Source of the DNA: a virus
IMG/VR virus record: IMGVR_UViG_3300049218_000295
Span: 1 to 64,000 of that record
Direction: 5' to 3' (one strand)
Length of the DNA stretch: 64,000 nucleotides
Shown one piece after another: positions 2,362 to 64,000 of the stretch (positions are counted from its first letter, which is position 1; the number at the start of each line of letters is the position of its first letter). A program made the position numbers and the translations under genes. Below the pieces are notes generated by a model. It was given only the letters and a program-made list of their open reading frames with translations. It had not been told where the DNA came from and searched no databases.

Positions 2362-2946
2362 ATGATTTCAAGAAATACTCTCATAGGGTTTCACGGCCAG
2401 CAAGGTTCGGGCAAGTCCAAACTCACTACTTTCACAGCCTCACTTTTAGAGCAACAAGGGTATTCTGTAGGGCTTTATGGCATCAAAAGCACCTTTAGTT
2501 GTTACGCCGAGAAGATTGCCTCGGACCTAGGGATGGAGTGGAAGGCAGGAGGAAAGGACCTTCTGGCTTTTAAAGAGTTACAGAAAGCAATTTCGTGCTC
2601 CATTGAACTGCATTATAAGAAAAGCGCCTGGTCAGATTTATTCCGTGATCAAGTGCTGCAACAGCCTGAGACCCAGACCCTCATCGCCGACGACATGAGG
2701 ACACCAATGAATTTTGATGCCTTGGTCCAGATTTCAGAGCACCGGCCCGTGGTCCTTTTCCGATTGCTAGCCTCAGAAGAGATTCGTCGGAAGCGATGCT
2801 CGGCTTTCCGGGAAAATGCTGGCTACACTGAAGAACTACTTGAAAAGCCATCGAGCTTACCCACAAACTTCAACTGGTGGGATATTAACACTGAACTTCC
2901 GATTGAAGAAAGCTACGCGGCGATTAAGGCAGCTTTAGGAGTATGA
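2362..2946 (+). CDS. deoxynucleoside monophosphate kinase-like P-loop kinase
   Basis: GQQGSGKS Walker A and DDMR motif (cf. DxR of phage dNMP kinases); start moved to ATG 2362 because the called TTG is the -35 box. Confidence 0.65.
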   Translation: MISRNTLIGFHGQQGSGKSKLTTFTASLLEQQGYSVGLYGIKSTFSCYAEKIASDLGMEWKAGGKDLLAFKELQKAISCSIELHYKKSAWSDLFRDQVLQQPETQTLIADDMRTPMNFDALVQISEHRPVVLFRLLASEEIRRKRCSAFRENAGYTEELLEKPSSLPTNFNWWDINTELPIEESYAAIKAALGV

Positions 2947-3374
2947 AAGAGCTGGTTATACTTGTAGGACCCCCCGGTTCCGGAAAAACAACCTATTCTA
3001 AGGCATTTCTACCTAATCACCTGCATCTTAGCACCGATTATGGAGCCATCAAGCAAAAATTCAAAGATGGTCTAGCAACGGGAAAAGACATTGTTATCGA
3101 TAGAATGAACCCAACCAAAAAGCAACGTGCAGAGTATATTAAGCCTGCAATAGAGGCGGGCTACCATGTCCGCGCCGTGATGTTCAATACACCTAAACTA
3201 GAATGTCGGCGTCGCCTAGTTCTCAGGAAGGACCACCCAACTCTCGATAACAGAAGTATCCCACGCTTGCACATGGTATTAGCGTATTTCTACAAAGAGT
3301 TTGAAGAGGTTGATGAAATTCCTGTCACCTTCGTCGAACCAGAAAATCTTTCCACGGACCCAGACGCTCCATAG
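2943..3374 (+). CDS. AAA_33 / polynucleotide-kinase-like P-loop kinase
   Basis: GPPGSGKTT, IVIDRMNPTKKQR, CRRRLVLR lid. Confidence 0.7.
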   Translation: MKELVILVGPPGSGKTTYSKAFLPNHLHLSTDYGAIKQKFKDGLATGKDIVIDRMNPTKKQRAEYIKPAIEAGYHVRAVMFNTPKLECRRRLVLRKDHPTLDNRSIPRLHMVLAYFYKEFEEVDEIPVTFVEPENLSTDPDAP

Positions 3375-4545
3375 TAGAATTAAAATCCGTCGGCGGGTTC
3401 TGTTTGAGTTCCCAGTAAGGGTCGGCATGACCCTCACGTTCTTGCAGGTAGTACCTAAGTATCTCGGTGAGACACTCAGGGTTCTCGCGTAATTCTCCAA
3501 CCGCTCTTTCATGCGAATAAATTGTCTTGGACATCCCACGAGTTAACGACTTCAACCCATGATAAAGGTAAACCCACCCTTCCAGCATTTGCCTGTTGAT
3601 AATAGAGTTAGAAAGGTCCCTCAAGCCACGAGTGTCGGAGTTAGCCTCAAACGCGGTGAGCAGTGTTTTCTCCGCAATGGTGAAGGCCCCTTCTGCATTT
3701 TCGAAATCGATTGGGTTCACTTTATGAGGCATAGCTGAAGAACCAGCCTGTCCCGAGCTGGATTCGTATAGGAGCAATTTTCTTTGGCAGTGGTCCCATA
3801 GAGCACGTGCCAGTGCTCGCATCTTGACCGCAGTGGCCACCCCGGAAAGGAGTGTGGCTTCATTGCTCGGTCCAAGTTGCAACAGGCCATGTGTATCCGT
3901 TGGAGTTACAATCTGGACTCGTTCTAGCTGAGCGAGACGATAGGCGACCTTCTTTGACCAAGCCGTCGCCATGTCTTTGAAATCCGAAAGGCCGGAAATC
4001 AGCCTCAGCGCCGTCAGTTGACCATTAGAGCCCCCAAGTCGGTACTCGGGCAAGACTAGACCAATACGCCTGCATTTGGCACGTAGATAGGGGCCGATAA
4101 ACACTGGAGTCGCTGGCTGGCCATGGGTGTGAGCCAAAATGGCAACTGGAAGCTGCTTTTCATATTCGCGAATAGCTAGCTCCACTTCGCGGAGTAAATC
4201 ATTGATCATTAAGATGCAGAGGTGCACTTGCGTCCAACGAGCGTTGTGCATGATGTCCTCGGACGTCAGGCCGTAATGAAAAGAAACCTCCGGATAGTCT
4301 TCTTCTAGCACCTGGATCAGCGCAACCATTTGGTGCTTGGTGACCTGCTCTTTAACCGAAACTCGCTTAGCCAGAAGTTGGCGGTCCGGGTACATGGGCA
4401 AATGTAAGTCATTATTCAACACTTCTGCATAAGTCAAAGACCAGAGGGACATGAAGTATACAAAGTTTTCTTCCCCGACAATTGGAGAAAGCGCCGACAG
4501 CGAAGCTGCGTACCGACCATCGAGAACGGAAAAACTCACTGTCAC
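3325..4545 (-). CDS. purB: adenylosuccinate lyase
   Basis: LDGRY, HYGLTSEDI, THGQPATP and fumarate-lyase signature GSSAMPHKVNPIDFENAEG; true start may be GTG 4539. Confidence 0.92.
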   Translation of the reverse strand: MTVSFSVLDGRYAASLSALSPIVGEENFVYFMSLWSLTYAEVLNNDLHLPMYPDRQLLAKRVSVKEQVTKHQMVALIQVLEEDYPEVSFHYGLTSEDIMHNARWTQVHLCILMINDLLREVELAIREYEKQLPVAILAHTHGQPATPVFIGPYLRAKCRRIGLVLPEYRLGGSNGQLTALRLISGLSDFKDMATAWSKKVAYRLAQLERVQIVTPTDTHGLLQLGPSNEATLLSGVATAVKMRALARALWDHCQRKLLLYESSSGQAGSSAMPHKVNPIDFENAEGAFTIAEKTLLTAFEANSDTRGLRDLSNSIINRQMLEGWVYLYHGLKSLTRGMSKTIYSHERAVGELRENPECLTEILRYYLQEREGHADPYWELKQNPPTDFNSTMERLGPWKDFLVRRR

Positions 4546-4685: not shown

Positions 4686-5225
4686 TTACAGCTTCAGCAA
4701 TGACTGAACAGGGTGCTGCAACTTTTTGCGGCCTTCTAAGGCTTCAAGTTCAATGAAGAAACGGTGCCCCAAGACCTTTGCTCCGGCCCTCTCGCAGATT
4801 AGTTCTACGGCATGCGCCGTGCCACCGGTAGCCAAAACATCGTCGATAATGATTACCCGGTCCCCCTTGGCCAAAGAGGTGGCGTGGACTTCCAGACAGT
4901 CATCCCCGTATTCGAGGTTATAGGCTTGCTTCAAGACTTCCCGAGGCAGTTTTCCGGGCTTCCGGGCAACCACCAGACCCACATGTCGGATTGCGGCTAT
5001 CGCGGCTCCCAAAATGAACCCTCTGGACTCGATGGCCACCAGCTTGTTGAAGTCGACTTGCATTGATTTGTTGATTTGGTGAATCAGGGACTGGTATGCA
5101 ATCGGGGTCTCGAGAATTGGTGTGATATCCCGGAAAGTGATTCCAGGCTTCGGGAAATCGGGGACGCTAATCAAAAGAGACTCTAAGTAGGCCGGTTGCC
5201 AGTAATTTTGTTCGGGAAACGTCAT
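4686..5225 (-). CDS. apt: adenine phosphoribosyltransferase
   Basis: PDFPKPGITFRDITP, ESRGF, RKPGKLP, YNLEYG, IIDDVLATGGT. Confidence 0.95.
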   Translation of the reverse strand: MTFPEQNYWQPAYLESLLISVPDFPKPGITFRDITPILETPIAYQSLIHQINKSMQVDFNKLVAIESRGFILGAAIAAIRHVGLVVARKPGKLPREVLKQAYNLEYGDDCLEVHATSLAKGDRVIIIDDVLATGGTAHAVELICERAGAKVLGHRFFIELEALEGRKKLQHPVQSLLKL

Positions 5226-41027: not shown

Positions 41028-41029
41028 CG

Positions 41030-42730: not shown

Positions 42731-42734
42731 TTAG

Positions 42735-45700: not shown

Positions 45701-46172
45701 AAACGGCGGAACTGGGACCACATCACAAGCCGGTGGCATACTAACAGGAACAATAACTACCCAATCGACCGCCGTCACGGCAACAAGTTATACAACCTTC
45801 AGCAACAGTCCTGGGTTCTCGTTCACACCTGTTGTTAGTGGTACATACAAAATTCGTTGCAACGCCACCGTGGATTGCTACAACTCAAGTTCTAGTGGTC
45901 CTACTGGCGTTGTTAGAGTGTACAACACAAGCGGTGGTGCAAGTTTGCTGGCGGAGTCTGCAGGCTGCATTGCAAATACCGGTTTCAGCGGAGCGTCGGC
46001 CTCTCAGCCGACAATACCTATTGAAAGCTGGTACACCCTTACTGCAGGCGTGGCCTACGTATTCGATGTCCAAGGCAAGGCGGTAACAGACATCTATGGA
46101 GGTAGCGGAACACAATTATATCTAAGTGGAGGCGACGCGCCACTCCATATGTTCGCAGAGCGCATCTTATAG
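42735..46172 (+). CDS. collagen-like tail fibre with three glycine-rich modules
   Basis: G-X-Y run about 42885-43644; three (S/T)GTYTTP...V(E/R)(M/L)VGGGGGG...GxIxVTEYY modules; distinct C-terminal domain. Confidence 0.88.
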   Translation: MGKIQDKDIKSAADLALEGFPISDLPNDDKIYIASLGKTLANAITSNDLLGPTGPQGTTGVAGATGLVGSQGTTGIQGVTGVAGTAGSQGSTGLRGTTGVAGNQGSTGVAGATGVQGNQGVTGVAGVNGVTGVAGVNGATGAQGTTGLTGTQGATGVAGVNGVTGVAGINGATGVQGTQGATGIAGVNGVTGIAGATGVQGVTGIRGYTGIEGTTGVAGNQGLTGTQGLQGLTGVSGSNGVTGVQGATGVAGATGRDGPTGFQGVTGVQGSTGVAGATGYQGVTGIQGQTGVAGMTGVQGITGLFSSAGYTTQTPTVQKFLTATSGTYTTPSNVAYIIVEMVGGGGGGAPGGTQSVAATSGGTTTFGTSFLSATGGGGGGQPPGGSGGTVSIGSGAIILAQLTGGQGSAGSSVAFSAGGGGAASPFGGAGGGGQNSGGGYYGIANTGSGAGGGGATATNPSGGGGGAGGYLKVLVPTPATYYSYAIGGGGASGTGSTSGGAGGSGVIIVTEYYNQTVASGITVTASTPPTKTIYLTAGATGTYTTPKGVQYISVRMVGGGGGGAGSSTVAANGGSGGTGGTSSFGTNLLTANGGSGGGGGGAGGGPGGSASLGTGPIGIGVTGGNGDSASTSISGFSPESGEGGSSALGGGGSGGAINFGVGGSGNPNTGGGGGGAGGGNISGGSIAGSGGGAGGYIEAIISNPSATYSYTVGAAGTAGAAGTSGSAGGIGGTGLIEVTEYYTAYATGGFSAGGANVPTVQKFLTATSGTYTTPSNVIYIEVELVGGGGGGSGSGTTAGAGGTGGNGSASTFGTSLLSAGGGTGGTWAGAGGAGSTSTTINTPAIQVTAVGGGSGSGAGNSSSVAQSTTPGAGGSSFFGGNGGGGDQATGVGHSAASNSGSGGGGALGANQASDYPGSGGGAGAYVKAVITNPLSSYSWTVGSGGAAGTAGSAGYAGGAGGSGAIIVTEYYANGTVGTATNVTGVVAQINGGTGTTSQAGGILTGTITTQSTAVTATSYTTFSNSPGFSFTPVVSGTYKIRCNATVDCYNSSSSGPTGVVRVYNTSGGASLLAESAGCIANTGFSGASASQPTIPIESWYTLTAGVAYVFDVQGKAVTDIYGGSGTQLYLSGGDAPLHMFAERIL

Positions 46173-46179
46173 GGCTAGT

Positions 46180-48528: not shown

Positions 48529-48662
48529 TATTTAGTCCCCCATGGAGCTTTGCCATGCTCTCTTATGTATGCTTCTCTATAGGCTAATTTTGCTTGTTCT
48601 GAAGTATCAAAATATCCTAAATGGTCTACTTGACGGAACAAGTAATTCAGAATCTCTTTCAT
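48528..48662 (-). pseudogene. 44-aa remnant of an HNH-AP2 endonuclease
   Basis: MKEILNY...HLGYFDTSEQAKLAYREAYIREHG; ATGA and TAATG overlaps with both flanking GT genes. Confidence 0.6.
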
Positions 48663-50533
48663 AGCCATTCCTCAGCAGTAAATTCAAAGTGGTCTTCGAG
48701 CACCACAGTCCGCTTTTGTGGATAAAGCTTCTGAAGGTGACTTTGTAAGGATTCGGTGCAAACTGTAATAACATCCGCGTACTGAACTCCTTTGTGCTCG
48801 TAGTATTCCCGAGGAAGCTCCTCACAAAGGTCCAGAATTTTCACTTTACCACGGTCGGTCCGACTCAGATAGGGACTAAAGTAGTAGTCCGTCTGGTCTG
48901 GGTCTTCTCCAACTTGAACCACATTGCCGACCACGACCCTGAAGCCTGCCTTAATGGCCGAAAGTTCTAGGTTTCGCTGACGAATACGGTAAGGGCCAAA
49001 AGTGGCATCACCTTCTGCGATTCGAATTTGGGGCTTGGTAGGGTAGGGCTTAACAAAATTGTTAACTTCCTGTCCGTTGTATTTTGCAGGTCCCAAGTAT
49101 TGAATTCCATGAACTATCAAGTCTTCGGCTTTGTTGCTGACTACCCAGACAAAACCACCTGGCTTTACAAAGTTTACCAGCGCTTTGGGATTACCACTAA
49201 CCACTATACCATCAAGGCTCTCAGGATCTAAATTGATGGTGGAGGCGTCATCGACTCTAGTGGAGTCATTGCGCAGCTTCGTGCCACATTCAAGGACTTT
49301 GAGACCACCTTTAGGCTCCACTTTGACTTTAGGGCGTAAACTCTCGAACCAACGGAGGGTGTCGGAGTCCGTAGGGAGTAAGTCTATGACCTTCTGACCC
49401 CATTCGACTGCTTTCTTGATGTCCCCCATTGCCTGATAGCACTCGGCAATCCGACGAGAGGGGTTCCAAGTGTAATATTCCAGACTCAAAACCCGTGGTG
49501 GCGGTGGTGGGGTATCAATGCAGCGTTGGTACCATTTAATTGCGACTTCGAAGTTGTGCAGGTCCTGTTCAACCTTACCCCAGAGCCAATAAGCCTCGGC
49601 CCGTTTGCGAGTAGAGTCAAGATGATAAATCTCCTCTGCCATTCGGACCGCCTCGCGGTGGCGTCCACGAACTTCGTAAGCCTTGCCTAGACGGAAACGA
49701 GCATTGACTTCATCATCATACCAGCGTCCGGGCAAAGTGAGATAGCGTTCGAGGACTTCGATGCCCCTGTCATCAACCATATCGAATAACTCTTTGCCAT
49801 AATAATAGCAAATGCGGGGGTCATTGGGATTCTTGTCGAATTCTTTGGCCAAAATCGTGACATTTCGTCGCGGGTCGATGACTTTACCACTTCGATTGTG
49901 GATCACCTTGAGGTCTTTGTAGTCTCGCTGGCGCATACAGGCGATGTCCACGGTCTCATGCACAGAGCCAATCCAGCGCGGCCCTGTAGAGCGCCTAATA
50001 AAGCGCTCTCGGCCTAACGTCGTTTGAGGGCTGCCATCGGAGAAGCGACTGTAGATGTAATCGAGAAGCCAAGCATCGACGTTGGGGTTATCGAGGAAAT
50101 TGTCCTTAAATTTACGGAGTTCAGCCGGATCAATTTGGTCGTCGCCGTCCAACCAAAAATAGAACGCAGTACCTGGTTTTGCTAATGAAAATGAAAAGTT
50201 CCTGGCTTCTGAAAAATTGTCGACCCACTTAAAATGGTCAATTCTAAGGTTGCTATACTCTTTTTGCAGGCCTTGAAGCACGCTTAAAGTGCCATCAGTG
50301 GACCCAGTGTCCACAACCACAACGTCCTCTATGATAGGACAGACCTGGTGCATGAGAGTTTTTATATTCGCAGCCTCATTTCTGACTATCATGCATAAAG
50401 AAACTGTGTTACCACCGTTTGCAGCATTACCTATAACCACGTTGTTGCTGCCAGAAACGCTTCTGCCGTTCCCAATAACCACATTGTTGTTTCCGGAGAC
50501 AGTCGAATCCCCAATAACCACATTGTTATTCAT
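48659..50533 (-). CDS. GT2 glycosyltransferase with TPR repeats
   Basis: SLCMIVRNE, VDTGSTDGT, FSEARN, WLDGDD, VHE, TPR helices; N-terminal NNVVIG repeats. Confidence 0.9.
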   Translation of the reverse strand: MNNNVVIGDSTVSGNNNVVIGNGRSVSGSNNVVIGNAANGGNTVSLCMIVRNEAANIKTLMHQVCPIIEDVVVVDTGSTDGTLSVLQGLQKEYSNLRIDHFKWVDNFSEARNFSFSLAKPGTAFYFWLDGDDQIDPAELRKFKDNFLDNPNVDAWLLDYIYSRFSDGSPQTTLGRERFIRRSTGPRWIGSVHETVDIACMRQRDYKDLKVIHNRSGKVIDPRRNVTILAKEFDKNPNDPRICYYYGKELFDMVDDRGIEVLERYLTLPGRWYDDEVNARFRLGKAYEVRGRHREAVRMAEEIYHLDSTRKRAEAYWLWGKVEQDLHNFEVAIKWYQRCIDTPPPPPRVLSLEYYTWNPSRRIAECYQAMGDIKKAVEWGQKVIDLLPTDSDTLRWFESLRPKVKVEPKGGLKVLECGTKLRNDSTRVDDASTINLDPESLDGIVVSGNPKALVNFVKPGGFVWVVSNKAEDLIVHGIQYLGPAKYNGQEVNNFVKPYPTKPQIRIAEGDATFGPYRIRQRNLELSAIKAGFRVVVGNVVQVGEDPDQTDYYFSPYLSRTDRGKVKILDLCEELPREYYEHKGVQYADVITVCTESLQSHLQKLYPQKRTVVLEDHFEFTAEEWL

Positions 50534-51308
50534 GCGCCCACTCCCGTCCCAATAGTTTGATGCATAGAACTACGCCCTCTGGTGTGGCTTTGTTGGACTT
50601 CGTAGCATTTGCTTCTTTGGTGATTAGGCGGAGATTGCGGTAGGTTTGGAGTTTGAGAACTTCTTCTGCATTTTGGGCTTGGGAAACTGGTACAATGTGG
50701 TCAATGGAAAGGATTTGAGGGTTGTAACTGATAGTGCCGTTATTGGTAAGGTGGTTCCAAAGAGTGGGATAGTCACATCCAATAATGTCGACCAGACTGG
50801 ATTCCTTAGGGATGCGCCCCTTTTCGAAAACAAGTCGCACTCTTCTCTTAATGTTTTTCTTGAAGCGCAGAAAGGGGTCTTGCTGAACAAGCGACCTGCG
50901 GTATTTGACATGGCAATCCTTGCAATAAACCGCCAGACCGTCCGGTCTGGCGCTATTCTTGTGAAAGTAGAAAGAGTTCCTGTCGCGGTTGCATTTGGTA
51001 CACAGCTTGGTTCCCGGTTCTGTCTGGCCAGCTCTCGACCTAGACTGTTCTAGGGCACAGGTCCTGCAGGTACCTGTTCGTACCTCTGCGACTGGCTTTT
51101 TGGACCGGCACACTGCGCACCAATCGAACCCGGCGGCCCTGAGTGATGCGCGTTCCATTGGAGTAAGTCTTTGTCTCGCGGGCTTGAAAGAAGACAATGA
51201 GACGTATTCTGCCAAGTACAACCACTGACCGCATTCTTTGCAGTTCTTGGAGATTTTGGTAGAAGCGACAGTCTTCTCGCAGTTGTTGCAGTAGGCTATT
51301 CTGCTCAT
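50526..51308 (-). CDS. HNH endonuclease
   Basis: Multiple CxxC, SIDHIVPVS...NLRLI...NATKSNK; C-terminus similar to 38650..39174. Confidence 0.8.
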   Translation of the reverse strand: MSRIAYCNNCEKTVASTKISKNCKECGQWLYLAEYVSLSSFKPARQRLTPMERASLRAAGFDWCAVCRSKKPVAEVRTGTCRTCALEQSRSRAGQTEPGTKLCTKCNRDRNSFYFHKNSARPDGLAVYCKDCHVKYRRSLVQQDPFLRFKKNIKRRVRLVFEKGRIPKESSLVDIIGCDYPTLWNHLTNNGTISYNPQILSIDHIVPVSQAQNAEEVLKLQTYRNLRLITKEANATKSNKATPEGVVLCIKLLGREWAHE

Positions 51309-51396
51309 CTACATTAAGATAAATACGGAGAGATACAAAACTCCAAATTAAACAATAAGCGTCAGTGGCACTTGACAGACGTGCTACACCATTCCA

Positions 51397-51428
51397 CTCA
51401 CGGGCGGTGTCGCTGGCACCCCCGTGAG
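51397..51428. terminator. strong hairpin after the dnaQ-like gene (possible terminator or mRNA 3' stabiliser)
   Basis: CTCACGGG/CCCGTGAG enclosing GGTGTC/GGCACC; no immediate U-tract. Confidence 0.45.
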
Positions 51429-51429
51429 G

Positions 51430-52155
51430 TCAAACTGTGGGTGGCGCGACGACCTCGGTCACCGTAAATGGGCACTTGCTCCGTTCGTGCTCGAGCAAAC
51501 AGGCCCGGATATTCTTGAACCAAGAACGGGTGTTGTTGTCGTAATAGTAGCCGCGAGTCTTAGCCTCATCCTTGGTGTTGAAGTCTACTCCGGCGTGGAC
51601 TTTAATCATCGGATGACGAGCAAGTTCGATTGCAGCTTTAATATCGTAATGCGAGGCAATGTAGATGGTAGCCATCGAATCAAAAAGACCACGGTGGGCA
51701 AAGTCCAAGGTGTACCGGTGGTCTGCCGCCAAATACTTTAAAGCTCGCATTTTCATCTGCTCGGGATAGGCAAAATCCACCTGGGTGTCCACCCAGGGAA
51801 TTTGAGGCAATTCTCCGACAAGCGCCGTGTACTTTTGCTCAATCATAGCCTTATCGAGCGCAATTCCACCGTGGACGATGACAGCTACCGAGTGCCGAAG
51901 AAGCAGGCCGAGCCGCCCCAAGGCTTGGCCAAGGGGCACTCCAAAGGTTTCAAGCATCTTATCGTCGATACCTGTAAGTTCCGTGATTTCGGGTTTGAGC
52001 GGTGGACAGTTGGGGTCCTGATCATAAATAAGTTCACTTAGGAATGTCACCGGCTTGCGCGTCTCGACATTCCAAAGCACCGCTCCGACTTCGGTAATGC
52101 GGTCCGTGTTCGGGTCAAGGCCCGAAGTTTCTAGGTCCAGCGCTGTAACAAACAT
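51430..52155 (-). CDS. DEDDh 3'-5' exonuclease (DNA Pol III epsilon-like)
   Basis: LDLETSG, ITEVGAV, LTGI, WVDT, AHRGLFD. Confidence 0.88.
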   Translation of the reverse strand: MFVTALDLETSGLDPNTDRITEVGAVLWNVETRKPVTFLSELIYDQDPNCPPLKPEITELTGIDDKMLETFGVPLGQALGRLGLLLRHSVAVIVHGGIALDKAMIEQKYTALVGELPQIPWVDTQVDFAYPEQMKMRALKYLAADHRYTLDFAHRGLFDSMATIYIASHYDIKAAIELARHPMIKVHAGVDFNTKDEAKTRGYYYDNNTRSWFKNIRACLLEHERSKCPFTVTEVVAPPTV

Positions 52156-52385
52156 TAGATGGTGAAACCTTTGAAGCCGGTTTCATCATAATGAAAGTAT
52201 TCGGCCTCGTCAAATTCGTTCGGAGTAAGCGAGATGTTGGGTTGCGGCGGATAAAGCACCTGCAAAATGATATGCTTACCCTTCTCAACCACGGTATAGA
52301 GAGCCTCTTTATCACTCTTACAAATCAGAGTGTCGTCTTGGCTGATATTTTGAGCGGTTGCGGGCTTAGTGAAAGTTGCGGGCAT
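52155..52385 (-). CDS. hypothetical protein
   Basis: 76 aa, AGGAG RBS, TAATG-coupled to the next gene. Confidence 0.65.
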   Translation of the reverse strand: MPATFTKPATAQNISQDDTLICKSDKEALYTVVEKGKHIILQVLYPPQPNISLTPNEFDEAEYFHYDETGFKGFTI

Positions 52386-52397
52386 AATGCTTCTCCT

Positions 52398-53528
52398 TTA
52401 TTCGAGCCAAATATAATCTTCGTGGTCCGGGCCAGAGCCAATCATCGCAACGGGCAGTTCGGTAACTTCTTGCATCTTGTCCACATATTGACGCACACTC
52501 TTGTGCAAGTTGCGGTATTCTTTAATGCCACCACGAACCTTATAGGAAGACCAATCAATGTACTGTGGAAAGTTAAGAACGAGCTTGGTGGCCCCGCAGA
52601 AATCCGCAGAATCTTTAAGTAATTTCCAGGATGGGGTAAAGACTCGGCGAATCTTTTTGGTCACAGTGGTGCGCTCGCGCTCGGCCAGAATTGCAATTTC
52701 ACTCTCTGGCATACCAGCCTCACGTCCAACTTGCTCCCAGGTCAGCTCTTTTTGGTCGTCAAGAACATCACCCGAGTAACCAATTTGTTTGCCGTCGGCG
52801 TCAAAATTGGAACCCACCCGGATTGGGAAACTACGGACATTGAGATAGACGTCTCCTACCATTTCAGGTAGGATGCCGAAGTCAGCATACGCCTGTTGAG
52901 GCGTGCAATCGCGGAAAGTGCAATGCGGATAGTGTGTTCCGTAGTTGACAGAGAGAGCAAAACCTTGGGAAACTTCGTGCAGAAAAGTATGCATACTTGC
53001 AAACTCGGCGCGGACCGCTCGCATGAACGCCATTGGCTTGATAGCCCGTTCTGGGTTAACTCTGCCCCAGGTTTTGAGTTCTTGTCCACGCATAGCTTTA
53101 TCCGTAAAGGCGGCCCCACTGCCCGACATCGTGGAAGAAATATGTAGAGTAGATTGCGAACCGGTTGGTGACTCGGCCTCGATGTGGCGGTCCTCGACTA
53201 CAATGGCGCGTTCATGAATTTCGAGATCTTCAACTCTATAGCCTGTTTCTTCCAGCTCCTTATGAAGCTGCTTCATCTGGAAACCAGAATTTGGACCTAC
53301 CCAAAGTGTTGGGCGTTTGCCCACCAGTTTGGGTAAGATGGCTCCCGTTGGGAGCGCTTTGGCTACAAATTTCACTTCGCCCTTGAGAGCGGTGTGTCCG
53401 GCGTTCGGGAAATTGCCCGATGAGAGATTAGGGATATCAAAAATGTCTGCCAGACGACAGGACACGGCTCCCTTGGCCGAGCTTCCCCAGGCTGAATCAA
53501 CAATAGTGTTAAACTTTCCTTTTTGCAT
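52398..53528 (-). CDS. purZ: PurZ-type adenylosuccinate synthetase paralogue (N6-succino-2-amino-dAMP synthase)
   Basis: WGSSAKG (Ser replacing the PurA Asp), NFPNAGHT, YPHCTFRDCTP, PIRVG, DQKELTWEQ, TTVTKKIRRVF, LNFPQY replacing TKLD. Confidence 0.85.
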   Translation of the reverse strand: MQKGKFNTIVDSAWGSSAKGAVSCRLADIFDIPNLSSGNFPNAGHTALKGEVKFVAKALPTGAILPKLVGKRPTLWVGPNSGFQMKQLHKELEETGYRVEDLEIHERAIVVEDRHIEAESPTGSQSTLHISSTMSGSGAAFTDKAMRGQELKTWGRVNPERAIKPMAFMRAVRAEFASMHTFLHEVSQGFALSVNYGTHYPHCTFRDCTPQQAYADFGILPEMVGDVYLNVRSFPIRVGSNFDADGKQIGYSGDVLDDQKELTWEQVGREAGMPESEIAILAERERTTVTKKIRRVFTPSWKLLKDSADFCGATKLVLNFPQYIDWSSYKVRGGIKEYRNLHKSVRQYVDKMQEVTELPVAMIGSGPDHEDYIWLE

Positions 53529-54795: not shown

Positions 54796-56490
54796 TCATC
54801 CGTGGCAGGCAGCGCATTCTTCCTTTGAACGGGAAGCCAAGTCGCCCTTCAAAACCCCTTCAGTACGGAGATAGTAGAGCGTTTTCAAACCGGCCTCCCA
54901 GGCTGCAATATGAACCTCGTGAATGTACTTGGCGCTAGAATTGCTAGCGAAAAAGAGGTTCAAGCTCTGAGCTTGGTCGATGTGTTTCTGACGCTGAGCC
55001 GCTTGCTTTACCAAGGCATGCTGATTGATTTCGCGAGCGGTCAGAAATACCTCGCGTTCCTGGTCCGTAAGAAAAGCCAAATGCTGCACTGAACCCGATT
55101 GCGCATTAATGGTTTTCCAGACTTCGGTCGTGTTCTTGCCGTAGGCTTCAAGAACTTCAAGTAGTTTGGGGTTCTTACGGATGAAAGTACCTTTGGCCGA
55201 CTTCTGAGAGAAAACGTTGGCCGGGAGCGGCTCAATTCCTGCACTGTGACCACCGGAAATGGTGGAATTGGATACAGTCGGAGCCACAGCAAGCAAGTGT
55301 GTATTGCGACGACCAAAGCCCTTACACCACTCGGGTTCGCCCATCTCTTTTGCCAATTCTGCTGTTGCCTTTTCAGCTTTGTCGCGCATCGTTTTGAAAA
55401 CAAGATTGTTGAGCATCATGGCATCAAAGGAGTCAAAAGGCATCATATTGTTTTGGAGAAGAGTGTGCCAGCCGAGAACACCAATTCCAATGGCCCGACC
55501 CTTGACCGCAGAGCGCAGGCTGTTTTCAAGGCCCGGTTTGCCTTTAGCTTTCAAGATGTACTCGTCAAGAACAGCATCGAGAAAACGAACTGCGGTCTCG
55601 ACCAAGTCTGTATCTCTCCATTCGTTCCAACGAACAAGGTTGAGCGAGGAAAGACAACAAACGAATGAATGCTGGCCGTCCGTATAAAGAGTGATTTCGG
55701 TGCAAATATTGCTGGTGCGGACGCGGAGGTCGTGTTTGGCATAGCAGTCAGGGTTGGCTCGGTTCACATTGTCCGAGAAAAAGAGATAGGGCTCCCCAGT
55801 AGTCACCCTAGCGTCAAGAACATCTAACCAAATTTTCCTTTTGCTAGAATCTCCATCCAACATCTCCTTCATCCATTTATCGCTAATGCACACTCCGTGG
55901 TTGGTATTCAAACAGCGCCGATTCATGTCGCCCGTCGGGCGGCGAATGTTAATGAATTCGTCAATATCTAGATGGTCAATATCTAAATAGAGTGCCGAGG
56001 CCGCGCCTCGAGTTTTTCCTTGTTTCACCGAGTGGGTAGTGGAATCGTAAACTTTTGCCCAGGGAATCACGCCTTCGGACTCGCCATTACCCGCAACTTG
56101 CTTACCGCGACCACGAATATCACCTAGATAGACACCAACGCCCGCGCCATTCTTAGAAAGCATAGCGAGTTCGTGATTCTTCTGAAAGATGCTGTCAATA
56201 CTATCCTCAACGTGAATCGAATTGCAGGAAATGGGCAAGCCGCGAGAGGTTCCCATGTTGGAAAGGATGGGCGAGGCCGGACACAGCCAATTTTTCCACA
56301 TGGCATCGAAGTACTTCTTTTCCCAAACTTTCGGTTCTTTGGAATAACTCGCAGCAGCTTTAGCCACGCGTTTGTACATGCCACGGGGAGTCTCGCCATC
56401 AAGTAGGTAGCCACCCTGTAAGGTCGCTAGTCCTGGTTCGTCAAGCCACACGGGGGCCTCATTGGCCTGCTTCAATTCATCAAGTATCAT
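54796..56490 (-). CDS. nrdA: class I ribonucleotide reductase alpha subunit, no ATP cone
   Basis: ISC, SNICTEI, CCLSSLN, APTVSNS, KTLYYLR, C-terminal CAAC. Confidence 0.95.
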   Translation of the reverse strand: MILDELKQANEAPVWLDEPGLATLQGGYLLDGETPRGMYKRVAKAAASYSKEPKVWEKKYFDAMWKNWLCPASPILSNMGTSRGLPISCNSIHVEDSIDSIFQKNHELAMLSKNGAGVGVYLGDIRGRGKQVAGNGESEGVIPWAKVYDSTTHSVKQGKTRGAASALYLDIDHLDIDEFINIRRPTGDMNRRCLNTNHGVCISDKWMKEMLDGDSSKRKIWLDVLDARVTTGEPYLFFSDNVNRANPDCYAKHDLRVRTSNICTEITLYTDGQHSFVCCLSSLNLVRWNEWRDTDLVETAVRFLDAVLDEYILKAKGKPGLENSLRSAVKGRAIGIGVLGWHTLLQNNMMPFDSFDAMMLNNLVFKTMRDKAEKATAELAKEMGEPEWCKGFGRRNTHLLAVAPTVSNSTISGGHSAGIEPLPANVFSQKSAKGTFIRKNPKLLEVLEAYGKNTTEVWKTINAQSGSVQHLAFLTDQEREVFLTAREINQHALVKQAAQRQKHIDQAQSLNLFFASNSSAKYIHEVHIAAWEAGLKTLYYLRTEGVLKGDLASRSKEECAACHG

Positions 56491-56505
56491 GCTGAGATTT
56501 GCTCC

Positions 56506-57468
56506 CTACGCATTAAAAACCTCCAGCCAATTTTTGGTTCCTTTGGCATAATCACTGACGCGGCTCGCGAAAAAATCACTGTGCGAGACGCCGCCCGAGA
56601 GCACATCAAACCAGTCCATGTTAAGGAGTAACGCCTTATCAATATTGGTCCACTTCGATTTCAGACCCAGGTCGTGCAGCTTCGTGTTGCAGCGGAAGCG
56701 GATGAAAGCCTTGAGGTCCTTAACCGACAGTCCTTCCACCGGGCCGAGTTCGAATGCTTTGTCGATGAAAGCGTCTTCGAGGGCGATAGTGAGCTTGGCA
56801 GCGTCGTAAATTTCACCTTTTAGCTCGTCGGTCCACACTTCTGGATATTCCGCGATAAACTGCTTAAATAACCGACAACCTGCTTCCGAGTGGAGCGATT
56901 CGTCCTTGATACTGAACGCGATGATTTGCCCCAGGCTCTTCATTTTGTTAAAGCGCGAAAAGTTGAGTAAGACTGCAAAGGAAGAGAAGAGGTTCACGCC
57001 TTCATTGAAGGCGGAGAAGATGGCGATAGAGCGAGCGATTTCTTGTTTCGTTTTGCCTTTGGTTTCGATTAGCCTATCGATTTTGGCTTTGGCCGTCGGC
57101 TCGTGAAGGAACGCCGAAAAGTCCTCGAGACCGAGCGATTGATTGAGGTAGGCATAAGAAACTGCGTGTACGGACTCCATAGAGCCAAATGCCGCCGCCA
57201 TCATCTGAATTTCAGGCTTTTTGAACCATTTGGCCACCATCTGGGTCCAGTACTCTTGGATGAAGATTTCAGACTGCGTGAAACCCTTCAGGATGTTGCC
57301 AATAACGGAACGCTCAGCATCGGTGAGCTTGGTCTTCCAATCATTGATGTCATCCGACATCGCGATTTCAGTATGAAGCCAGTGCGACTGCTGCTGCTGC
57401 TCCCAGTAAGTGTAGGCCCAATCGTACTCAAAAGGGCTATAGGTAGCTCTAGGAGTTAATAACGGCAT
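56506..57468 (-). CDS. nrdB: class I ribonucleotide reductase beta subunit
   Basis: PFEY, ESVHAVSY, EGVNLFSSF, DESLH, DFF...Y. Confidence 0.95.
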   Translation of the reverse strand: MPLLTPRATYSPFEYDWAYTYWEQQQQSHWLHTEIAMSDDINDWKTKLTDAERSVIGNILKGFTQSEIFIQEYWTQMVAKWFKKPEIQMMAAAFGSMESVHAVSYAYLNQSLGLEDFSAFLHEPTAKAKIDRLIETKGKTKQEIARSIAIFSAFNEGVNLFSSFAVLLNFSRFNKMKSLGQIIAFSIKDESLHSEAGCRLFKQFIAEYPEVWTDELKGEIYDAAKLTIALEDAFIDKAFELGPVEGLSVKDLKAFIRFRCNTKLHDLGLKSKWTNIDKALLLNMDWFDVLSGGVSHSDFFASRVSDYAKGTKNWLEVFNA

Positions 57469-60169: not shown

Positions 60170-60790
60170 ATGGAATGCTCCCAATGTGCAGTTGAAATGA
60201 GAGAACTACCAAACGGCGATTGGCTTTGTTCAGTTTGCAAAGCCCGGTATGGTGAAGTGCTCCCCAATGACTTGAGCCCGTTTGAAATCGAGAAACCTCG
60301 GGAGGAATTGCCACCTGTCGCAATTTTCCCCGGTTCCTTCAACCCCTGGCATGAAGGACATCAGGACGTGCTTGATAAAGCACTCGCCATCTTCCATAAA
60401 GTCATTATCCTGCAAACCCAAAACTCCAAGAAGGGTCAATCGACCCCATTGCTAGTCGCAATTGAGAAGTACCCAGGTCTCAAATGGAGGTTGGCCGCCG
60501 AGATTGAAAAGGGTCGAGTAGTAATCTATGAAATGCAGGGCTTTCTTACTGATTCTATTCGGAGAGTCGAAGAGGTGGAAAAAGTCAAAATTACTGCGGT
60601 GGTACGAGGCCTTCGCAACGGGTATGACTTGCAGACCGAAATGGTCCAGCAATATTGGTATGAAGACCTTAAAATGACGACTCCAATAGTTTACATCATC
60701 ACCGACCGCAAGCATGCCCATATTTCGAGTTCCGCTATTCGTGAAGTCGAAGGTTTGCAGGAACAGTTCAGGAAGCCCGAGACCCAATGA
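60170..60790 (+). CDS. coaD: phosphopantetheine adenylyltransferase-like protein with N-terminal Zn ribbon
   Basis: FPGSFNPWHEGH, NSKK, VRGLRN..D..E, HISSSAIRE. Confidence 0.82.
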   Translation: MECSQCAVEMRELPNGDWLCSVCKARYGEVLPNDLSPFEIEKPREELPPVAIFPGSFNPWHEGHQDVLDKALAIFHKVIILQTQNSKKGQSTPLLVAIEKYPGLKWRLAAEIEKGRVVIYEMQGFLTDSIRRVEEVEKVKITAVVRGLRNGYDLQTEMVQQYWYEDLKMTTPIVYIITDRKHAHISSSAIREVEGLQEQFRKPETQ

Positions 60791-62448: not shown

Positions 62449-62458
62449 AAGGAAGCTT

Positions 62459-63010
62459 ATGATAGTTTATTTAGGAGCAGCAATCGACACTTCGCTGGGT
62501 TCGCCCGCAGACCAGTTCAACATGTTGAGCGAATTAGTGTTGAAGGCAAATAAGGGTTCTGTCATTTTCTTCAATCCGCTCACGGCGTTTATCAACGCTC
62601 ACGCGATTACTCGTGAACAGGACATGCAATTCCTTATTGATATCAATAACACCGCGCTGGACCGTGCCGACCTCGCAGTTTTCTCCTGGACCTCGTCGCC
62701 CTCCATGGGCGTTCCGCTGGAAATTCAGCGTTGCAAGGAACAGAAGAAACCAATGGTAATTTGGAATCGCACTCCCAAGAAACTGGGGATTTATTTGCGC
62801 AGTGGAATGGGACGTAACCAAATCATTGTAGAAAGTGAAGAGGACGTAGTAGCCGCCATTCGGGCTTGGCCTGGCCATCCAGAGAGCCTGATGGAGTTAC
62901 CACCAAAGCCAGAACCACATCTAACTCTACCTCTTCCTCCTCCAACACTTAATCAAGAACATAAGAAAACTTTTATGCGGGAGTATCCGCCAAAGATCAA
63001 TGACCAATAA
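62459..63010 (+). CDS. nucleoside 2-deoxyribosyltransferase-like (NDT/DNPH1 fold) protein
   Basis: IVYLGAAID, FFNP, ALDRAD, SMGVPLEI...KPMVIW; start ATG 62459. Confidence 0.7.
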   Translation: MIVYLGAAIDTSLGSPADQFNMLSELVLKANKGSVIFFNPLTAFINAHAITREQDMQFLIDINNTALDRADLAVFSWTSSPSMGVPLEIQRCKEQKKPMVIWNRTPKKLGIYLRSGMGRNQIIVESEEDVVAAIRAWPGHPESLMELPPKPEPHLTLPLPPPTLNQEHKKTFMREYPPKINDQ

Positions 63011-63665
63011 TTGGACCCTTCTTGACCAGAAGGAATCGTTGTACTATTATTGGCTTGGCTGGATGGTCACAGATGGTTGTATCATGCATCGATTCCGAGA
63101 AGGCAGAAATCGAGGCATAATAGTTGCGCTGACCATGCACCGGAACGACGAACACATTTTAGACTTCTTCAGAGATCAGATTCGACCGGACGCTAAATAC
63201 GCAATTAATGGCAATTGCAGCATGCTCAGTCTGGCATTGCCTAGGCGCTACGCGAATGAATTAGCAAAATTTGGGTTAGTACAGCGTAAGACAATAAATC
63301 TGAAAGTCACCAACACTCTCAAATCTATGCCAAAAGAAGCATTCCTTCAGTATTTAGTGGGGATTATTGAAGGCGATGGCTGTGTTGATATAAGGATGCT
63401 GAAGAGCAAGGGCTATGAATATAGTGTGCCGCGCATAAGGGTGACAAACAACAGCAAGCCTTTTCTTGAATGGATTGCTAGGAAATGTGAGTATTATTGC
63501 GGTGTGAAACGAAGAAAGCCTTATAAAAGACAGGGTTGCGAGTGCTGGGAATTGGGCATCGCCGGTAAAGACGCAATAGAGCTGCATAAGCAGCTCAGTT
63601 CTTGCCAATACCGTTTGCTGGAGAGAAAATGGAAGTTAATAGAACCTTTAGACCAACATCAATAG
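63000..63665 (+). CDS. free-standing LAGLIDADG homing endonuclease
   Basis: Two motifs: YWLGWMVTDGCI and YLVGIIEGDGCV. Confidence 0.85.
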   Translation: MTNNWTLLDQKESLYYYWLGWMVTDGCIMHRFREGRNRGIIVALTMHRNDEHILDFFRDQIRPDAKYAINGNCSMLSLALPRRYANELAKFGLVQRKTINLKVTNTLKSMPKEAFLQYLVGIIEGDGCVDIRMLKSKGYEYSVPRIRVTNNSKPFLEWIARKCEYYCGVKRRKPYKRQGCECWELGIAGKDAIELHKQLSSCQYRLLERKWKLIEPLDQHQ

Positions 63666-64000
63666 GACATTTATTTGGGCAGGAGCATGTTTTAAACATG
63701 CTGGTCTCATGGGTCGAGCGCCCAGAAACTATTCCATCAACCATCATGTTCTCTGGCCCCTATGGGACAGGAAAGACATCAATTGCCAGAATTCTATCCG
63801 GTATTCTGACAAACGGATCAACTTGTGATATCGACGAAATCAATGCTGCTGCGTCTCGTGGCATCGATGATGTGCGCGAAATTGCGGACTCGGTCCGCAT
63901 TCGGCCTTTTGGCCCGGCTAAAGTATACATTCTGGACGAGTTTCACCAATTGACAGATGCTGCTCAGAAGGCTCTCCTTAAAGTGGTCGAAGAGCCACCT
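63629..64000 (+). CDS. dnaX: DNA polymerase III gamma/tau clamp loader (truncated by window edge)
   Basis: Translated by hand: MEVNRTFRP...FGQEHV...SGPYGTGKTSIARI...EINAAASRGIDDVR...KVYILDEFHQLT..AQKALLKVVEEPP. Confidence 0.92.
   Translation, partial: MEVNRTFRPTSIGHLFGQEHVLNMLVSWVERPETIPSTIMFSGPYGTGKTSIARILSGILTNGSTCDIDEINAAASRGIDDVREIADSVRIRPFGPAKVYILDEFHQLTDAAQKALLKVVEEPP

What the first reader, a model, noticed from the sequence alone, without database searches (positions are those of the whole stretch)
52398..53528. PurZ (Z-base synthesis), not PurA, in a large phage with a Pol III-type replisome
Seen: the enzyme has Ser where PurA has its catalytic Asp (WGSSAKG vs WGDEGKG), PIRVG instead of TRVG, TTVTKKIRRVF, and LNFPQY instead of the GTP-specifying TKLD. 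It also has N-x-PNAGHT, CT-x-RDCTP and DQ-x-ELTWEQ blocks. Established: these substitutions characterise PurZ of phages such as S-2L and phiVC8, which converts dGMP plus Asp to the precursor of dZMP. Characterised Z-phages are mostly small and usually carry datZ, mazZ and/or dpoZ. Inference: this large phage makes 2-aminoadenine DNA, fully or partly, with different accessory machinery, because none of those partners flanks purZ here (neighbours are a DEDDh exonuclease, hsp20 and nrdAB).
Basis: partly seen in the sequence, partly recalled or inferred. Interest (0 to 1): 0.92.

Follow-up and report, generated by a model that had tools for sequence, protein, structure and literature searches.

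The report
PurZ-type enzyme in large phage
A large uncultured phage carries an intact relative of PurZ, the enzyme that small phages use to replace adenine with 2-aminoadenine (Z) in DNA, plus its own follow-up enzymes, so it probably makes Z-DNA, but no chemistry has been tested.

Summary
It has Ser at the PurA Asp13 site and the ATP-type pocket motif N-F-x-Q-Y.

Its best solved relative is phiVC8 PurZ (2e-30). Its best NCBIfam model is PurZ, at 180 bits, under that model's 300-bit cut-off.

In a careful ML tree it lies in a 32-row clade. That clade is grouped (99/94) with the clade holding all characterised ATP-type PurZ. PurZ0, cellular Ser-type paralogues and true PurA fall outside.

Its 14-row subclade (100/100) holds three complete phages whose purZ comes with known Z-pathway helpers:
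- 118 kb: MazZ/DUF550-like plus DatZ-like.
- 41 kb: PrimPol, DUF5664, NDT and PolA.
- 161 kb: dUTPase plus NDT, and a Pol III alpha.

This contig is 169 kb and 66% complete. It shows no DatZ, MazZ, DUF5664, Dut or DpoZ. It does have a DmtZ-like gene 9 kb from purZ with all five tested DmtZ residues, plus purB, apt and nrdAB.

No polymerase gene was found. Pol III-style accessory genes are present.

Z-DNA is likely (about 0.65) but untested. This scan has already reported PurZ in other large phages, on other DNA.

The parts
52398..53528 (-). purZ-type succino-amino-deoxyadenylate synthase gene (376 aa, P0001)
   Evidence: S16 sits at the Asp13 site and F320/Y323 at the ATP pocket. Tree placement. 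AF2 model pLDDT 97.8; TM 0.77-0.79 to phiVC8/S-2L PurZ and Pyrococcus PurA.
62459..63010 (+). dmtZ-like NDT-family gene. The ORF is open from GTG 62402. The likely start is ATG 62459, after an AAGGAAG SD and the helicase stop codon.
   Evidence: Pfam PF05014 is weak (E 0.0037, below cut-off). Homologues occur in PurZ phages G009 (40% identity) and G006 (28%; PF05014 E 1.6e-11). Y23, D29, P59, N82 and E107 align with Ghobes DmtZ Tyr6, Asp12, Pro57, Asn77 and Glu103. Start site.
3325..4545 (-). purB (adenylosuccinate lyase family, 406 aa)
   Evidence: Pfam Lyase_1 E 3e-12 plus ASL_C. The 21 best PDB matches are all adenylosuccinate lyases, best E 4.6e-21.
4686..5225 (-). apt (adenine phosphoribosyltransferase, 179 aa)
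   Evidence: Pfam Pribosyltran E 4e-11. PDB adenine phosphoribosyltransferases, best E 2.9e-43.
2943..3374 (+). small P-loop kinase-like protein (AAA_33). Candidate nucleotide kinase, function not shown.
   Evidence: Pfam AAA_33 E 1e-14.
54796..57468 (-). nrdA (54796-56490) and nrdB (56506-57468), class I ribonucleotide reductase
   Evidence: Pfam Ribonuc_red_lgC E 1.3e-108 and Ribonuc_red_sm E 1.9e-64.
51430..52155 (-). DEDDh (RNase_T / DnaQ-like) exonuclease, directly downstream of purZ
   Evidence: Pfam PF00929 E 3.6e-10.
63602..64000 (+). Start of a Pol III delta'/gamma-like clamp-loader gene. It runs to 64546, beyond the window.
   Evidence: the genome search PF13177, 65.5 bits, E 5.9e-19, at 63821-64087.

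Best explanation
The ORF encodes an ATP-using PurZ. [quoted passage not shown] The phage's own PurB then most likely cleaves dSMP to dZMP, and kinases (phage P-loop kinases or host enzymes) raise it to dZTP. NrdAB next to purZ supplies deoxynucleotides. The DmtZ-like enzyme most likely destroys dAMP, giving adenine plus deoxyribose 5-phosphate and possibly passing the sugar phosphate to Z base. Apt would return the freed adenine to the ribonucleotide pool. The net effect would be DNA in which adenine is largely or wholly replaced by 2-aminoadenine, copied by a polymerase not found on this contig. Shown here: homology, signature residues, tree position and the gene company kept in relatives. 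Inferred: substrates, flux, the roles of PurB, Apt and DmtZ, and Z in the virion DNA.
For: (1) Signature residues. Ser16 replaces Asp13. In a 339-sequence alignment the five rows with Asp here are the five true PurA. F320 and Y323 match VpPurZ F295 and Y298, which hold the adenine of ATP (bioRxiv 10.1101/2025.10.22.683976; alignment). PurZ0, short PurA and PurA keep an Asp in that motif. (2) Scores. The PurZ model NF038379 scores 180 bits, archaeal-type PurA 141 and TIGR purA 96. phiVC8 PurZ is the best PDB sequence match. (3) Careful IQ-TREE, LG+C20 PMSF, 86 rows. The Ser-type superclade has support 99/98. Our 32-row clade (96/87) is grouped with the 20-row clade holding all characterised PurZ (95/91) in a 54-row clade at 99/94. 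PurZ0 (100/100) and the main cellular clades (Acidobacteria, Planctomycetes, Archaea, Mesorhizobium-type fusions) fall outside. Six rows from cellular assemblies lie inside. (4) Same 14-row subclade (100/100), complete relatives. G011 (118 kb) has purZ, then a MazZ/DUF550-like gene (4e-11), then a DatZ/YfbR-like gene (4e-7; PF12917 1.8e-9). G009 (41 kb) has an S-2L-like PrimPol, purZ, DUF5664 (PF18909, 2e-23), plus NDT and PolA. G006 (161 kb) has dUTPase (2e-21) next to NDT (1.6e-11). (5) G000 and G009 share only purZ, the NDT-like gene and a DNA methylase. PurZ is 66% identical between G000 and G006, whereas all other shared proteins are 22-33% identical. (6) All five residues studied by mutagenesis in Ghobes DmtZ are conserved, including the unusual Asn77. 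(7) purB and apt are phage-encoded.
Against: There is no biochemical or DNA-chemistry evidence. The NCBIfam PurZ score is below the curated cut-off (180 against 300). No DatZ, MazZ/DUF550, DUF5664, Dut, DpoZ or PrimPol was found in the 169 kb, by phmmer at E<=1 on the six-frame translation or by small family profiles with filters off. A step turning dATP into dAMP, and one turning dGTP into dGMP, is therefore unaccounted for; a NUDIX-domain protein at 72841-74826 is the only candidate. Ser at the Asp13 site is not unique to phage PurZ. Many cellular paralogues of unknown function also have it. purB plus apt would also fit an ordinary AMP-salvage reading. No polymerase was found.
Confidence: 0.68

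Rival explanations
1. Ordinary purine-salvage auxiliary genes. The enzyme acts as a short, archaeal-style PurA (IMP plus Asp to adenylosuccinate) and, with phage PurB and Apt, raises AMP/ATP supply during infection. The DNA is canonical.
For: purB and apt, the classical partners of purA in the AMP branch, are encoded together on the same contig. No DatZ, MazZ or DpoZ is present. The fold is as close to Pyrococcus PurA (TM 0.79/0.88) as to PurZ.
Against: The catalytic Asp13 is Ser. The GTP motif T-K-L-D is replaced by N-F-P-Q-Y. True PurA, long and short, branch outside with support 99/98. Relatives in the same 100/100 subclade sit in DatZ/MazZ and DUF5664 clusters. A DmtZ-like gene with the dAMP-hydrolase residues is present. 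Among nine other records with this PurZ clade, only one has even a weak PurB match, so PurB is not the enzyme's constant partner.
Confidence: 0.08
2. A PurZ-fold enzyme with a related but different job. It might act on GMP, with Z ribonucleotides then reduced by the adjacent NrdAB. It might make Z for only partial substitution. Or it might reshape purine pools (dGMP drain, adenine exclusion) without a fully Z genome.
For: purZ lies beside nrdAB here and in G006. The known dATP- and dGTP-hydrolysing helpers are missing. The clade is 30-36% identical to any assayed PurZ and has two insertions and a longer C-terminus than small-phage PurZ. Cellular Ser-type paralogues show that this active-site type is not tied to Z genomes.
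Against: Clade members in G011 and G009 have the standard deoxy-pathway helpers. Both sides of the bracket, PurZ and PurZ0, were shown by others to use dGMP (PMC12884076). DmtZ acts on dAMP.
Confidence: 0.2
3. A decaying or non-functional gene copy.
For: None found.
Against: The frame is intact and has a good SD. It is 66% identical to G006 while other shared genes are 22-33%. All nearly invariant family positions are kept. The AF2 model has pLDDT 97.8. Relatives carry inteins at the active-site Cys, which fits a gene that must stay functional.
Confidence: 0.02

Closest known systems
PurZ (DgsS) of Vibrio phage phiVC8 and cyanophage S-2L (PDB 6FM1/6FKO/6TNH, 7ODX; NCBIfam NF038379)
   Same: Short PurA-type fold. 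Ser at the Asp13 site, P-I-R-V-G, T-T-V-T-K-K-x-R-R, and the ATP pocket N-F-x-[NQ]-Y (F295/Y298). Grouped in one clade in the tree (99/94). Phage-encoded.
   Different: Only 30-36% identity, and below the NCBIfam cut-off. Two insertions (about residues 240-250 and 270-283) and a longer, PurA-like C-terminus. G-S-S-A-K-G rather than G-S-T-G-K-G. The host genomes reach 100-440 kb, against 83 kb or less for every isolated phage among the 100 rows shown of 196 matching records. Here there is no adjacent datZ, mazZ or dpoZ.
PurZ0 of Gordonia phage Ghobes / Arthrobacter phage Wayne (PDB 7VF6)
   Same: Ser at the Asp13 site. A phage enzyme of the Z pathway. Accompanied by an NDT-family DmtZ, as in this phage, and by Dut, as in relative G006.
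   Different: PurZ0 forms its own 100/100 clade outside the 54-row PurZ+ours clade. It keeps the Asp-containing, GTP-type motif where this protein has N-F-P-Q-Y. Only 26-28% identity.
Archaeal short PurA (Pyrococcus horikoshii PH0438, PDB 5K7X/2D7U; NCBIfam NF003295)
   Same: Same compact fold; best Foldseek match, TM 0.79/0.88. Similar length.
   Different: The short PurA recovered here (Archaeoglobaceae, L096) has Asp13 (G-D-E-G-K-G), T-R-V-G and an Asp-containing GTP motif. It branches outside the Ser-type superclade (99/98).
DmtZ of Gordonia phage Ghobes (NDT-family dAMP hydrolase / deoxyribose-5-phosphate transferase; PMC12884076)
   Same: The window's 62459-63010 product keeps Tyr6, Asp12, Pro57, Asn77 and Glu103. 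It occurs in PurZ-carrying phages.
   Different: Only 17% identity to Ghobes DmtZ; the pairwise BLAST is marginal (E 0.009) and the Pfam NDT hit is below cut-off. It is found here with an ATP-type PurZ, whereas DmtZ was described as enriched in PurZ0 genomes. It is not fused to or adjacent to a Dut gene.
Cellular Ser/Gly-type PurA paralogues (unnamed; Acidobacteria, Planctomycetes, Loki, Archaeoglobaceae, DPANN, Mesorhizobium-type fusions)
   Same: Ser or Gly at the Asp13 site, P-I-R-V-G, T-[TS]-V-T-K-R-x-R-R. They coexist with a canonical PurA.
   Different: G-S-E-G-K-G and an Asp-containing nucleotide motif. They branch below the PurZ+ours clade. Chromosomal. Function unknown.

Membership tests
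PurZ (ATP-dependent succino-amino-deoxyadenylate synthase) | Adenylosuccinate-synthetase homology and fold | tested here: met
   PF00709 at 83 bits. AF2 pLDDT 97.8; TM 0.77/0.84 to 6FM1 and 0.78/0.83 to 7ODX.
PurZ (ATP-dependent succino-amino-deoxyadenylate synthase) | Ser in place of the catalytic Asp13 of PurA (VpPurZ S14) | tested here: met
   S16 aligns with S14 of phiVC8 PurZ and with Asp in PurA. It is Ser in 323 of 339 aligned family members.
PurZ (ATP-dependent succino-amino-deoxyadenylate synthase) | ATP-type base pocket (VpPurZ F295 and Y298) in place of the GTP motif (T/N)KxD | tested here: met
   F320 and Y323 in L-N-F-P-Q-Y align with L-N-F-C-N-Y of phiVC8.
PurZ (ATP-dependent succino-amino-deoxyadenylate synthase) | Score over the curated NCBIfam NF038379 cut-off | tested here: not met
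   180.3 bits against a 300-bit cut-off. It is nevertheless the best-scoring model. The model type is 'exception'.
PurZ (ATP-dependent succino-amino-deoxyadenylate synthase) | Branches with characterised PurZ rather than with PurA, PurZ0 or the cellular paralogues | tested here: met
   It is grouped with the characterised PurZ clade in a 54-row clade at 99/94. It is not nested inside the characterised clade.
PurZ (ATP-dependent succino-amino-deoxyadenylate synthase) | Genomic company of Z-pathway helpers (DatZ, MazZ/DUF550, DUF5664, DutZ, DmtZ, DpoZ/PrimPol) | tested here: inconclusive
   Own contig (66% complete): DmtZ-like only; none of the others. Same 100/100 subclade: G011 has MazZ-like plus DatZ-like; G009 has PrimPol, DUF5664, NDT and PolA; G006 has Dut plus NDT.
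PurZ (ATP-dependent succino-amino-deoxyadenylate synthase) | Catalyses dGMP + Asp + ATP to dSMP; Z present in virion DNA | not testable with these tools
   Needs an enzyme assay and nucleoside LC-MS.
PurA (adenylosuccinate synthetase) | Catalytic Asp13 and the GTP-specifying (T/N)KxD motif | tested here: not met
   Ser16, and N-F-P-Q-Y. PurA branches outside with support 99/98.
PurZ0 (GTP-using PurZ variant) | Member of the PurZ0 clade with an archaeal-PurA-like guanine pocket | tested here: not met
   PurZ0 is a separate 100/100 clade. Its motif keeps Asp (L-S-F-A-D-Q, L-T-M-L-D-Q) where this protein has F-P-Q-Y.
DmtZ (NDT-family dAMP hydrolase/transferase), for ORF 62459-63010 | Catalytic Tyr6 and Glu103 plus Asp12, Asn77 and Pro57 of Ghobes DmtZ | tested here: met
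   Y23, D29, P59, N82 and E107 are invariant across the window protein, G006, G009 and Ghobes gp53.
DmtZ (NDT-family dAMP hydrolase/transferase), for ORF 62459-63010 | Significant match to the NDT family (PF05014) | tested here: inconclusive
   The window protein scores 17.8 bits, E 0.0037, below the 28.8-bit cut-off. Its G006 homologue scores 44.8 bits, over the cut-off.
PurB (adenylosuccinate lyase), for ORF 3325-4545 | Lyase_1 plus ASL_C domains, with adenylosuccinate lyases as closest relatives | tested here: met
   Activity on dSMP was not testable.

The most novel reading that the evidence does not exclude
This phage belongs to a broad, undescribed set of large phages (100-440 kb contigs) with Z-DNA genomes. 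Their PurZ is a separate clade, exchanged among otherwise unrelated phages. Their Z supply can be self-contained (own PurZ plus PurB). Adenine exclusion here would run through a DmtZ-like enzyme and Apt instead of DatZ and MazZ. The Z-DNA would be copied by a bacterial-style Pol III replisome rather than by a family-A DpoZ or a PrimPol. The closest complete relative, G006, has Pol III alpha and no PolA or PolB.
Probability: 0.4. Interest if true: 0.8.

Novelty: new variant of a known kind. Interest (0 to 1): 0.62.

Why it matters
The open papers searched place Z genomes in seven phage groups, and every isolated phage listed here with a PurZ homologue has a genome of 83 kb or less. They describe replication by a Z-selective family-A polymerase or a PrimPol, with dSMP cleaved by the host's PurB.

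If this clade is active, Z-DNA extends to large and huge phages. A second large branch of PurZ exists, and it moves between unrelated phages. The post-PurZ step can be phage-encoded. A Pol III-type replicase may have to cope with, or select for, dZTP.

That would give new enzymes for making Z-DNA. It would also warn that many large metagenomic phages may carry a base that changes restriction, sequencing and host-defence behaviour.

The finding is not unique within this scan. Other windows from other genomes gave the same kind of result.

Tried and rejected
- **The genome search 'own' is insensitive to weak matches.** It missed the NDT-like gene that hmmscan found. Its negatives were therefore backed up with phmmer on the six-frame translation and with small family profiles with filters off.
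- **The search for related loci with the 14-sequence alignment A1 failed.** It found no conserved stretch. The search was repeated with A2.
- **ORFs 9726-12122 and 12489-14468 were suspected to be a divergent polymerase.** They had no Pfam or PDB hits, and the G006 homologue carries an intein. They are the portal and the large terminase.
- **The third gene shared by G000 and G009 (155273-156025) was considered as a Z-module member.** It is an N6/N4 DNA methylase, which is too generic to count.
- **The look-up of encoding contigs for the window's own protein** returned only a 3.6-kb contig from another sample.
- So there are no environment or read-level data.
- **Fold comparison cannot separate PurZ from short PurA.** It was not used for the functional call.
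- **PurB as a constant partner of this PurZ clade was rejected.** Only 1 weak match was found in 9 other records.
- **Literature searches** for PurZ with 'jumbo phage', or for 2-aminoadenine with adenylosuccinate lyase in phages, found nothing relevant. Subscription papers are not in that library.
Full report
**Observation.** The minus-strand ORF 52398-53528 encodes 376 residues (P0001). It has an ATG start and an AGGAG Shine-Dalgarno 8 nt upstream.
- Homology to adenylosuccinate synthetases is beyond chance: PF00709 E 1.9e-23 and PHROG 1211, '2-aminooxy adenylosuccinate synthetase', E 2.7e-46.
- Among NCBIfam models the best is PurZ (NF038379, 180 bits, under its 300-bit cut-off). Next come archaeal-type PurA (141 bits) and TIGR purA (96 bits).
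- Among solved structures the best sequence match is phiVC8 PurZ (2e-30). Then come Pyrococcus short PurA (2e-24), S-2L PurZ (1.6e-23) and PurZ0 7VF6 (1e-13).
- The stated neighbours are confirmed: a DEDDh exonuclease, HSP20, NrdA and NrdB.
- The record is an IMG/VR contig of 168,948 bp, linear, judged 66% complete.

**Signature residues.** The comparison set was phiVC8, S-2L and Acinetobacter phage PurZ, Ghobes and Preamble PurZ0, cellular paralogues, a short archaeal PurA and three long PurA.
- Ser16 sits at the PurA Asp13 site. G-S-S-A-K-G here compares with G-S-T-G-K-G in PurZ, G-S-E-A-K-G in PurZ0 and G-D-E-G-K-G in PurA.
- The nucleotide-base motif is L-N-F-P-Q-Y. It aligns with L-N-F-C-N-Y of phiVC8 PurZ.
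- PurZ0, short PurA and PurA all keep an Asp in this motif. The protein therefore has the ATP-type PurZ pattern, not the PurZ0 or PurA pattern.
- It differs from small-phage PurZ by two insertions and a longer, PurA-like C-terminus.
- An AlphaFold2 model from a 101-row alignment is very confident (pLDDT 97.8, pTM 0.94). It matches Pyrococcus PurA, phiVC8 and S-2L PurZ and PurZ0 about equally (TM 0.77-0.79 by query). The fold confirms the family but does not decide the function.

**Family and phylogeny.** The protein is not an orphan.
- The word-indexed search gave 882 hits at E<=1e-10. The 119 listed relatives are 46-80% identical, and 20 of them lie on contigs of 100-436 kb.
- The exhaustive search of 50% representatives gave 161 proteins at E<=1e-30.
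- Isolated phages reach at most 36% identity. All 100 listed rows, of 196 matching records, are genomes of 83 kb or less.
- A scan of species-representative genomes returned 80 loci, nearly all with Ser (some Gly) at the Asp13 site. In five such genomes the Ser/Gly protein coexists with a canonical Asp-type PurA. It is therefore a paralogue, not the housekeeping enzyme.
- A FastTree of 339 rows and a careful IQ-TREE of 86 rows (LG+C20+F+G4 PMSF, ultrafast bootstrap/SH-aLRT) agree.
- Long PurA and then short archaeal PurA lie outside a Ser-type superclade (99/98). Inside it, PurZ0 (100/100) and the main cellular clades branch first.
- A 54-row clade (99/94) then holds a 20-row clade with all characterised ATP-type PurZ (95/91), a 32-row clade with this protein (96/87; inner 31 rows 99/96) and two unplaced single rows. 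Six of the 54 rows come from cellular assemblies.
- The protein sits in a 14-row subclade (100/100) with the PurZ of three complete IMG/VR phages.

**What the relatives carry.** IMG/VR holds nine other contigs with this clade. Four are rated 100% complete (three of them with direct terminal repeats): G006 (160.7 kb), G009 (41.4 kb), G011 (117.7 kb) and G014 (315 kb). I fetched G006, G009 and G011 whole and compared gene sets.
- G011 has, directly after purZ, a gene matching S-2L MazZ (4e-11) and DUF550 (7e-10). Next is a gene matching S-2L DatZ (4e-7) and Pfam YfbR-like (1.8e-9). That is the classical triad.
- G009 has an S-2L-like PrimPol (5e-26), then purZ, then a DUF5664 protein (PF18909, 2e-23). 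Elsewhere it has an NDT-like gene and a family-A polymerase.
- G006 has a dUTPase (PF00692, 2e-21; 2e-18 to Ghobes gp55) next to an NDT gene (PF05014, 1.6e-11), about 10 kb from purZ.
- The myxobacterial loci L015 and L016, and contig G008, have a Dut-like gene beside or near purZ.
- These are the helper sets described for Z phages (PMC12884076), in varying combinations.
- The phages are otherwise nearly unrelated. G000 and G009 share only purZ (56%), the NDT-like gene (40%) and a DNA methylase. G000 and G006 share PurZ at 66% identity but their other common proteins at 22-33%.

**This phage's own equipment.**
- *Not found.* No DatZ, MazZ/DUF550, DUF5664, Dut, DpoZ or PrimPol was found. The tests were family searches, phmmer of reference proteins against the six-frame translation at E<=1 and small family profiles with filters off. 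The contig is about two-thirds of the genome, so absence is not proven.
- *DmtZ-like gene.* ORF 62402-63010 probably starts at ATG 62459. It gives only a weak NDT hit (E 0.0037). It is, however, the homologue of the NDT genes of G006 and G009. Its Y23, D29, P59, N82 and E107 align with Tyr6, Asp12, Pro57, Asn77 and Glu103 of Ghobes DmtZ. Those are the residues that paper studied by mutagenesis, including the family-atypical Asn77.
- *purB.* ORF 3325-4545 is an adenylosuccinate lyase.
- *apt.* ORF 4686-5225 is an adenine phosphoribosyltransferase (2.9e-43).
- *Others.* A small AAA_33 kinase-like gene lies beside them. nrdAB lie next to purZ. A NUDIX-domain protein at 72841-74826 is the only visible candidate for a dNTP pyrophosphatase.
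- *PurB in the literature.* The papers read treat PurB as a host function. A phage-encoded PurB beside a PurZ is unusual, and it is not general in this clade: one weak match in nine other records.

**Replisome.** The contig has DnaB, a DnaG-type primase, an NAD ligase, RecA, SbcC, the DnaQ-like exonuclease next to purZ and a delta'-like clamp loader.
- It has no recognisable polymerase.
- The closest complete relative by PurZ, G006, has a Pol III alpha gene (230.7 bits) and no PolA or PolB. G007, G008 and G012 also have Pol III alpha. G009, G010, G011 and G014 have family-A polymerases.

**Mechanism proposed.** PurZ (dGMP + Asp + ATP to dSMP) and the phage PurB (dSMP to dZMP + fumarate) would make dZMP, and kinases would raise it to dZTP. 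The DmtZ-like enzyme would remove dAMP, and Apt would send the released adenine back to AMP. NrdAB would feed the deoxynucleotide pools. Homology, residues, tree position and gene company are shown. Substrates, flux and Z in the DNA are inferred. I put the PurZ-type activity at about 0.8 and a Z-substituted genome at about 0.65.

**Rivals.**
- An ordinary AMP-salvage set (PurA-like + PurB + Apt) fits the gene list. It does not fit the Ser16 and N-F-P-Q-Y signatures, the tree or the relatives' gene clusters (about 0.08).
- A related but different chemistry, or only partial substitution, cannot be excluded (about 0.2). The reasons are that the enzyme is only 30-36% identical to assayed PurZ, the dATP/dGTP hydrolases are missing, and cellular Ser-type paralogues of unknown function exist.
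- A dead gene is very unlikely.

**Novelty.** PurZ, DmtZ and Z genomes are known. What is new relative to the open literature searched is:
- a large sister clade of PurZ in phages of 100 kb and more;
- its pairing here with a DmtZ-like gene, a phage PurB and Apt, without DatZ, MazZ or DpoZ;
- Pol III alpha as the only polymerase in a complete relative.

Earlier follow-ups in this scan reached similar conclusions for other large phages on other DNA. Another first-stage note on this window flagged the purB/apt/kinase cluster, which I had found independently and tested.

Noticed in passing
Loci L017-L091 (genome contigs); e.g. L059, L053, L032, L046: There is a large family of chromosomal Ser/Gly-for-Asp13 PurA paralogues in bacteria and archaea, including Acidobacteria, Planctomycetes, Loki, Archaeoglobaceae and DPANN. 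In the five genomes checked they coexist with a canonical PurA. About 25 are ~530-aa fusions with an N-terminal P-loop kinase-like domain (Mesorhizobium, Sphingomonas, Microbacterium, Solirubrobacterales). A PurB-like gene lies next to the paralogue in L053 and L049. Function unknown.
   Followed up: partly
L015:3001-4883 and L016:3001-4868 (Chondromyces apiculatus, Sorangium sp. So ce131): Myxobacterial assemblies (the Sorangium one a complete chromosome) carry a PurZ of the window's 31-row clade with a Dut-like gene directly downstream (E 1e-19 to 1e-25 to Ghobes and G006 Dut). This may be a prophage or a domesticated Z module; not resolved.
   Followed up: partly
Proteins P0121, P0124, P0127, P0130, P0141, P0144 (relatives of P0001): Inserts of about 375-407 aa lie immediately before the conserved Cys of Y-P-x-C-T-[SF]-R (P0001 C203). 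They begin C-L-S/N and end x-N before the Cys, as inteins do. P0122, P0125 and P0151 (790-807 aa) carry a different extra segment of roughly 420-440 residues near the N-terminus.
   Followed up: partly
window 63000-63665 (+): A LAGLIDADG-type homing-endonuclease-like ORF (PF09062 / PF14528, weak) sits between the dmtZ-like gene and the clamp-loader gene.
   Followed up: no
G000 108174-109412 (+), outside the window: A tubulin/FtsZ-like gene (PF00091, E 1.5e-7, just under cut-off) lies near MoxR-type AAA and VWA genes.
   Followed up: no
window 40988-50533: Two collagen-repeat genes (580 and 1145 aa, in a 57% GC stretch) converge on large multi-domain glycosyltransferases (782 aa with GT2 and GT4/GT1 domains; 624 aa with GT2 and TPR).
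   Followed up: no
G006 49011-52232 (-) (locus L129:9011-12232): The large-terminase homologue of relative G006 carries an intein with a LAGLIDADG domain. The window's TerL (12489-14468) does not.
   Followed up: no
G000 147111-148169 (-) and 155273-156025 (-), outside the window: A GmrSD_N (DUF262)-type protein and an N6/N4 DNA methylase. The methylase is one of only three genes shared with the 41-kb PurZ phage G009.
   Followed up: partly
window 32521-34149 (-), 20908-21528 (-), 60170-60790 (+): A sigma-70 region-2 protein (542 aa), a ClpP protease and a cytidylyltransferase-like nucleotidyltransferase are encoded by the phage.
   Followed up: no
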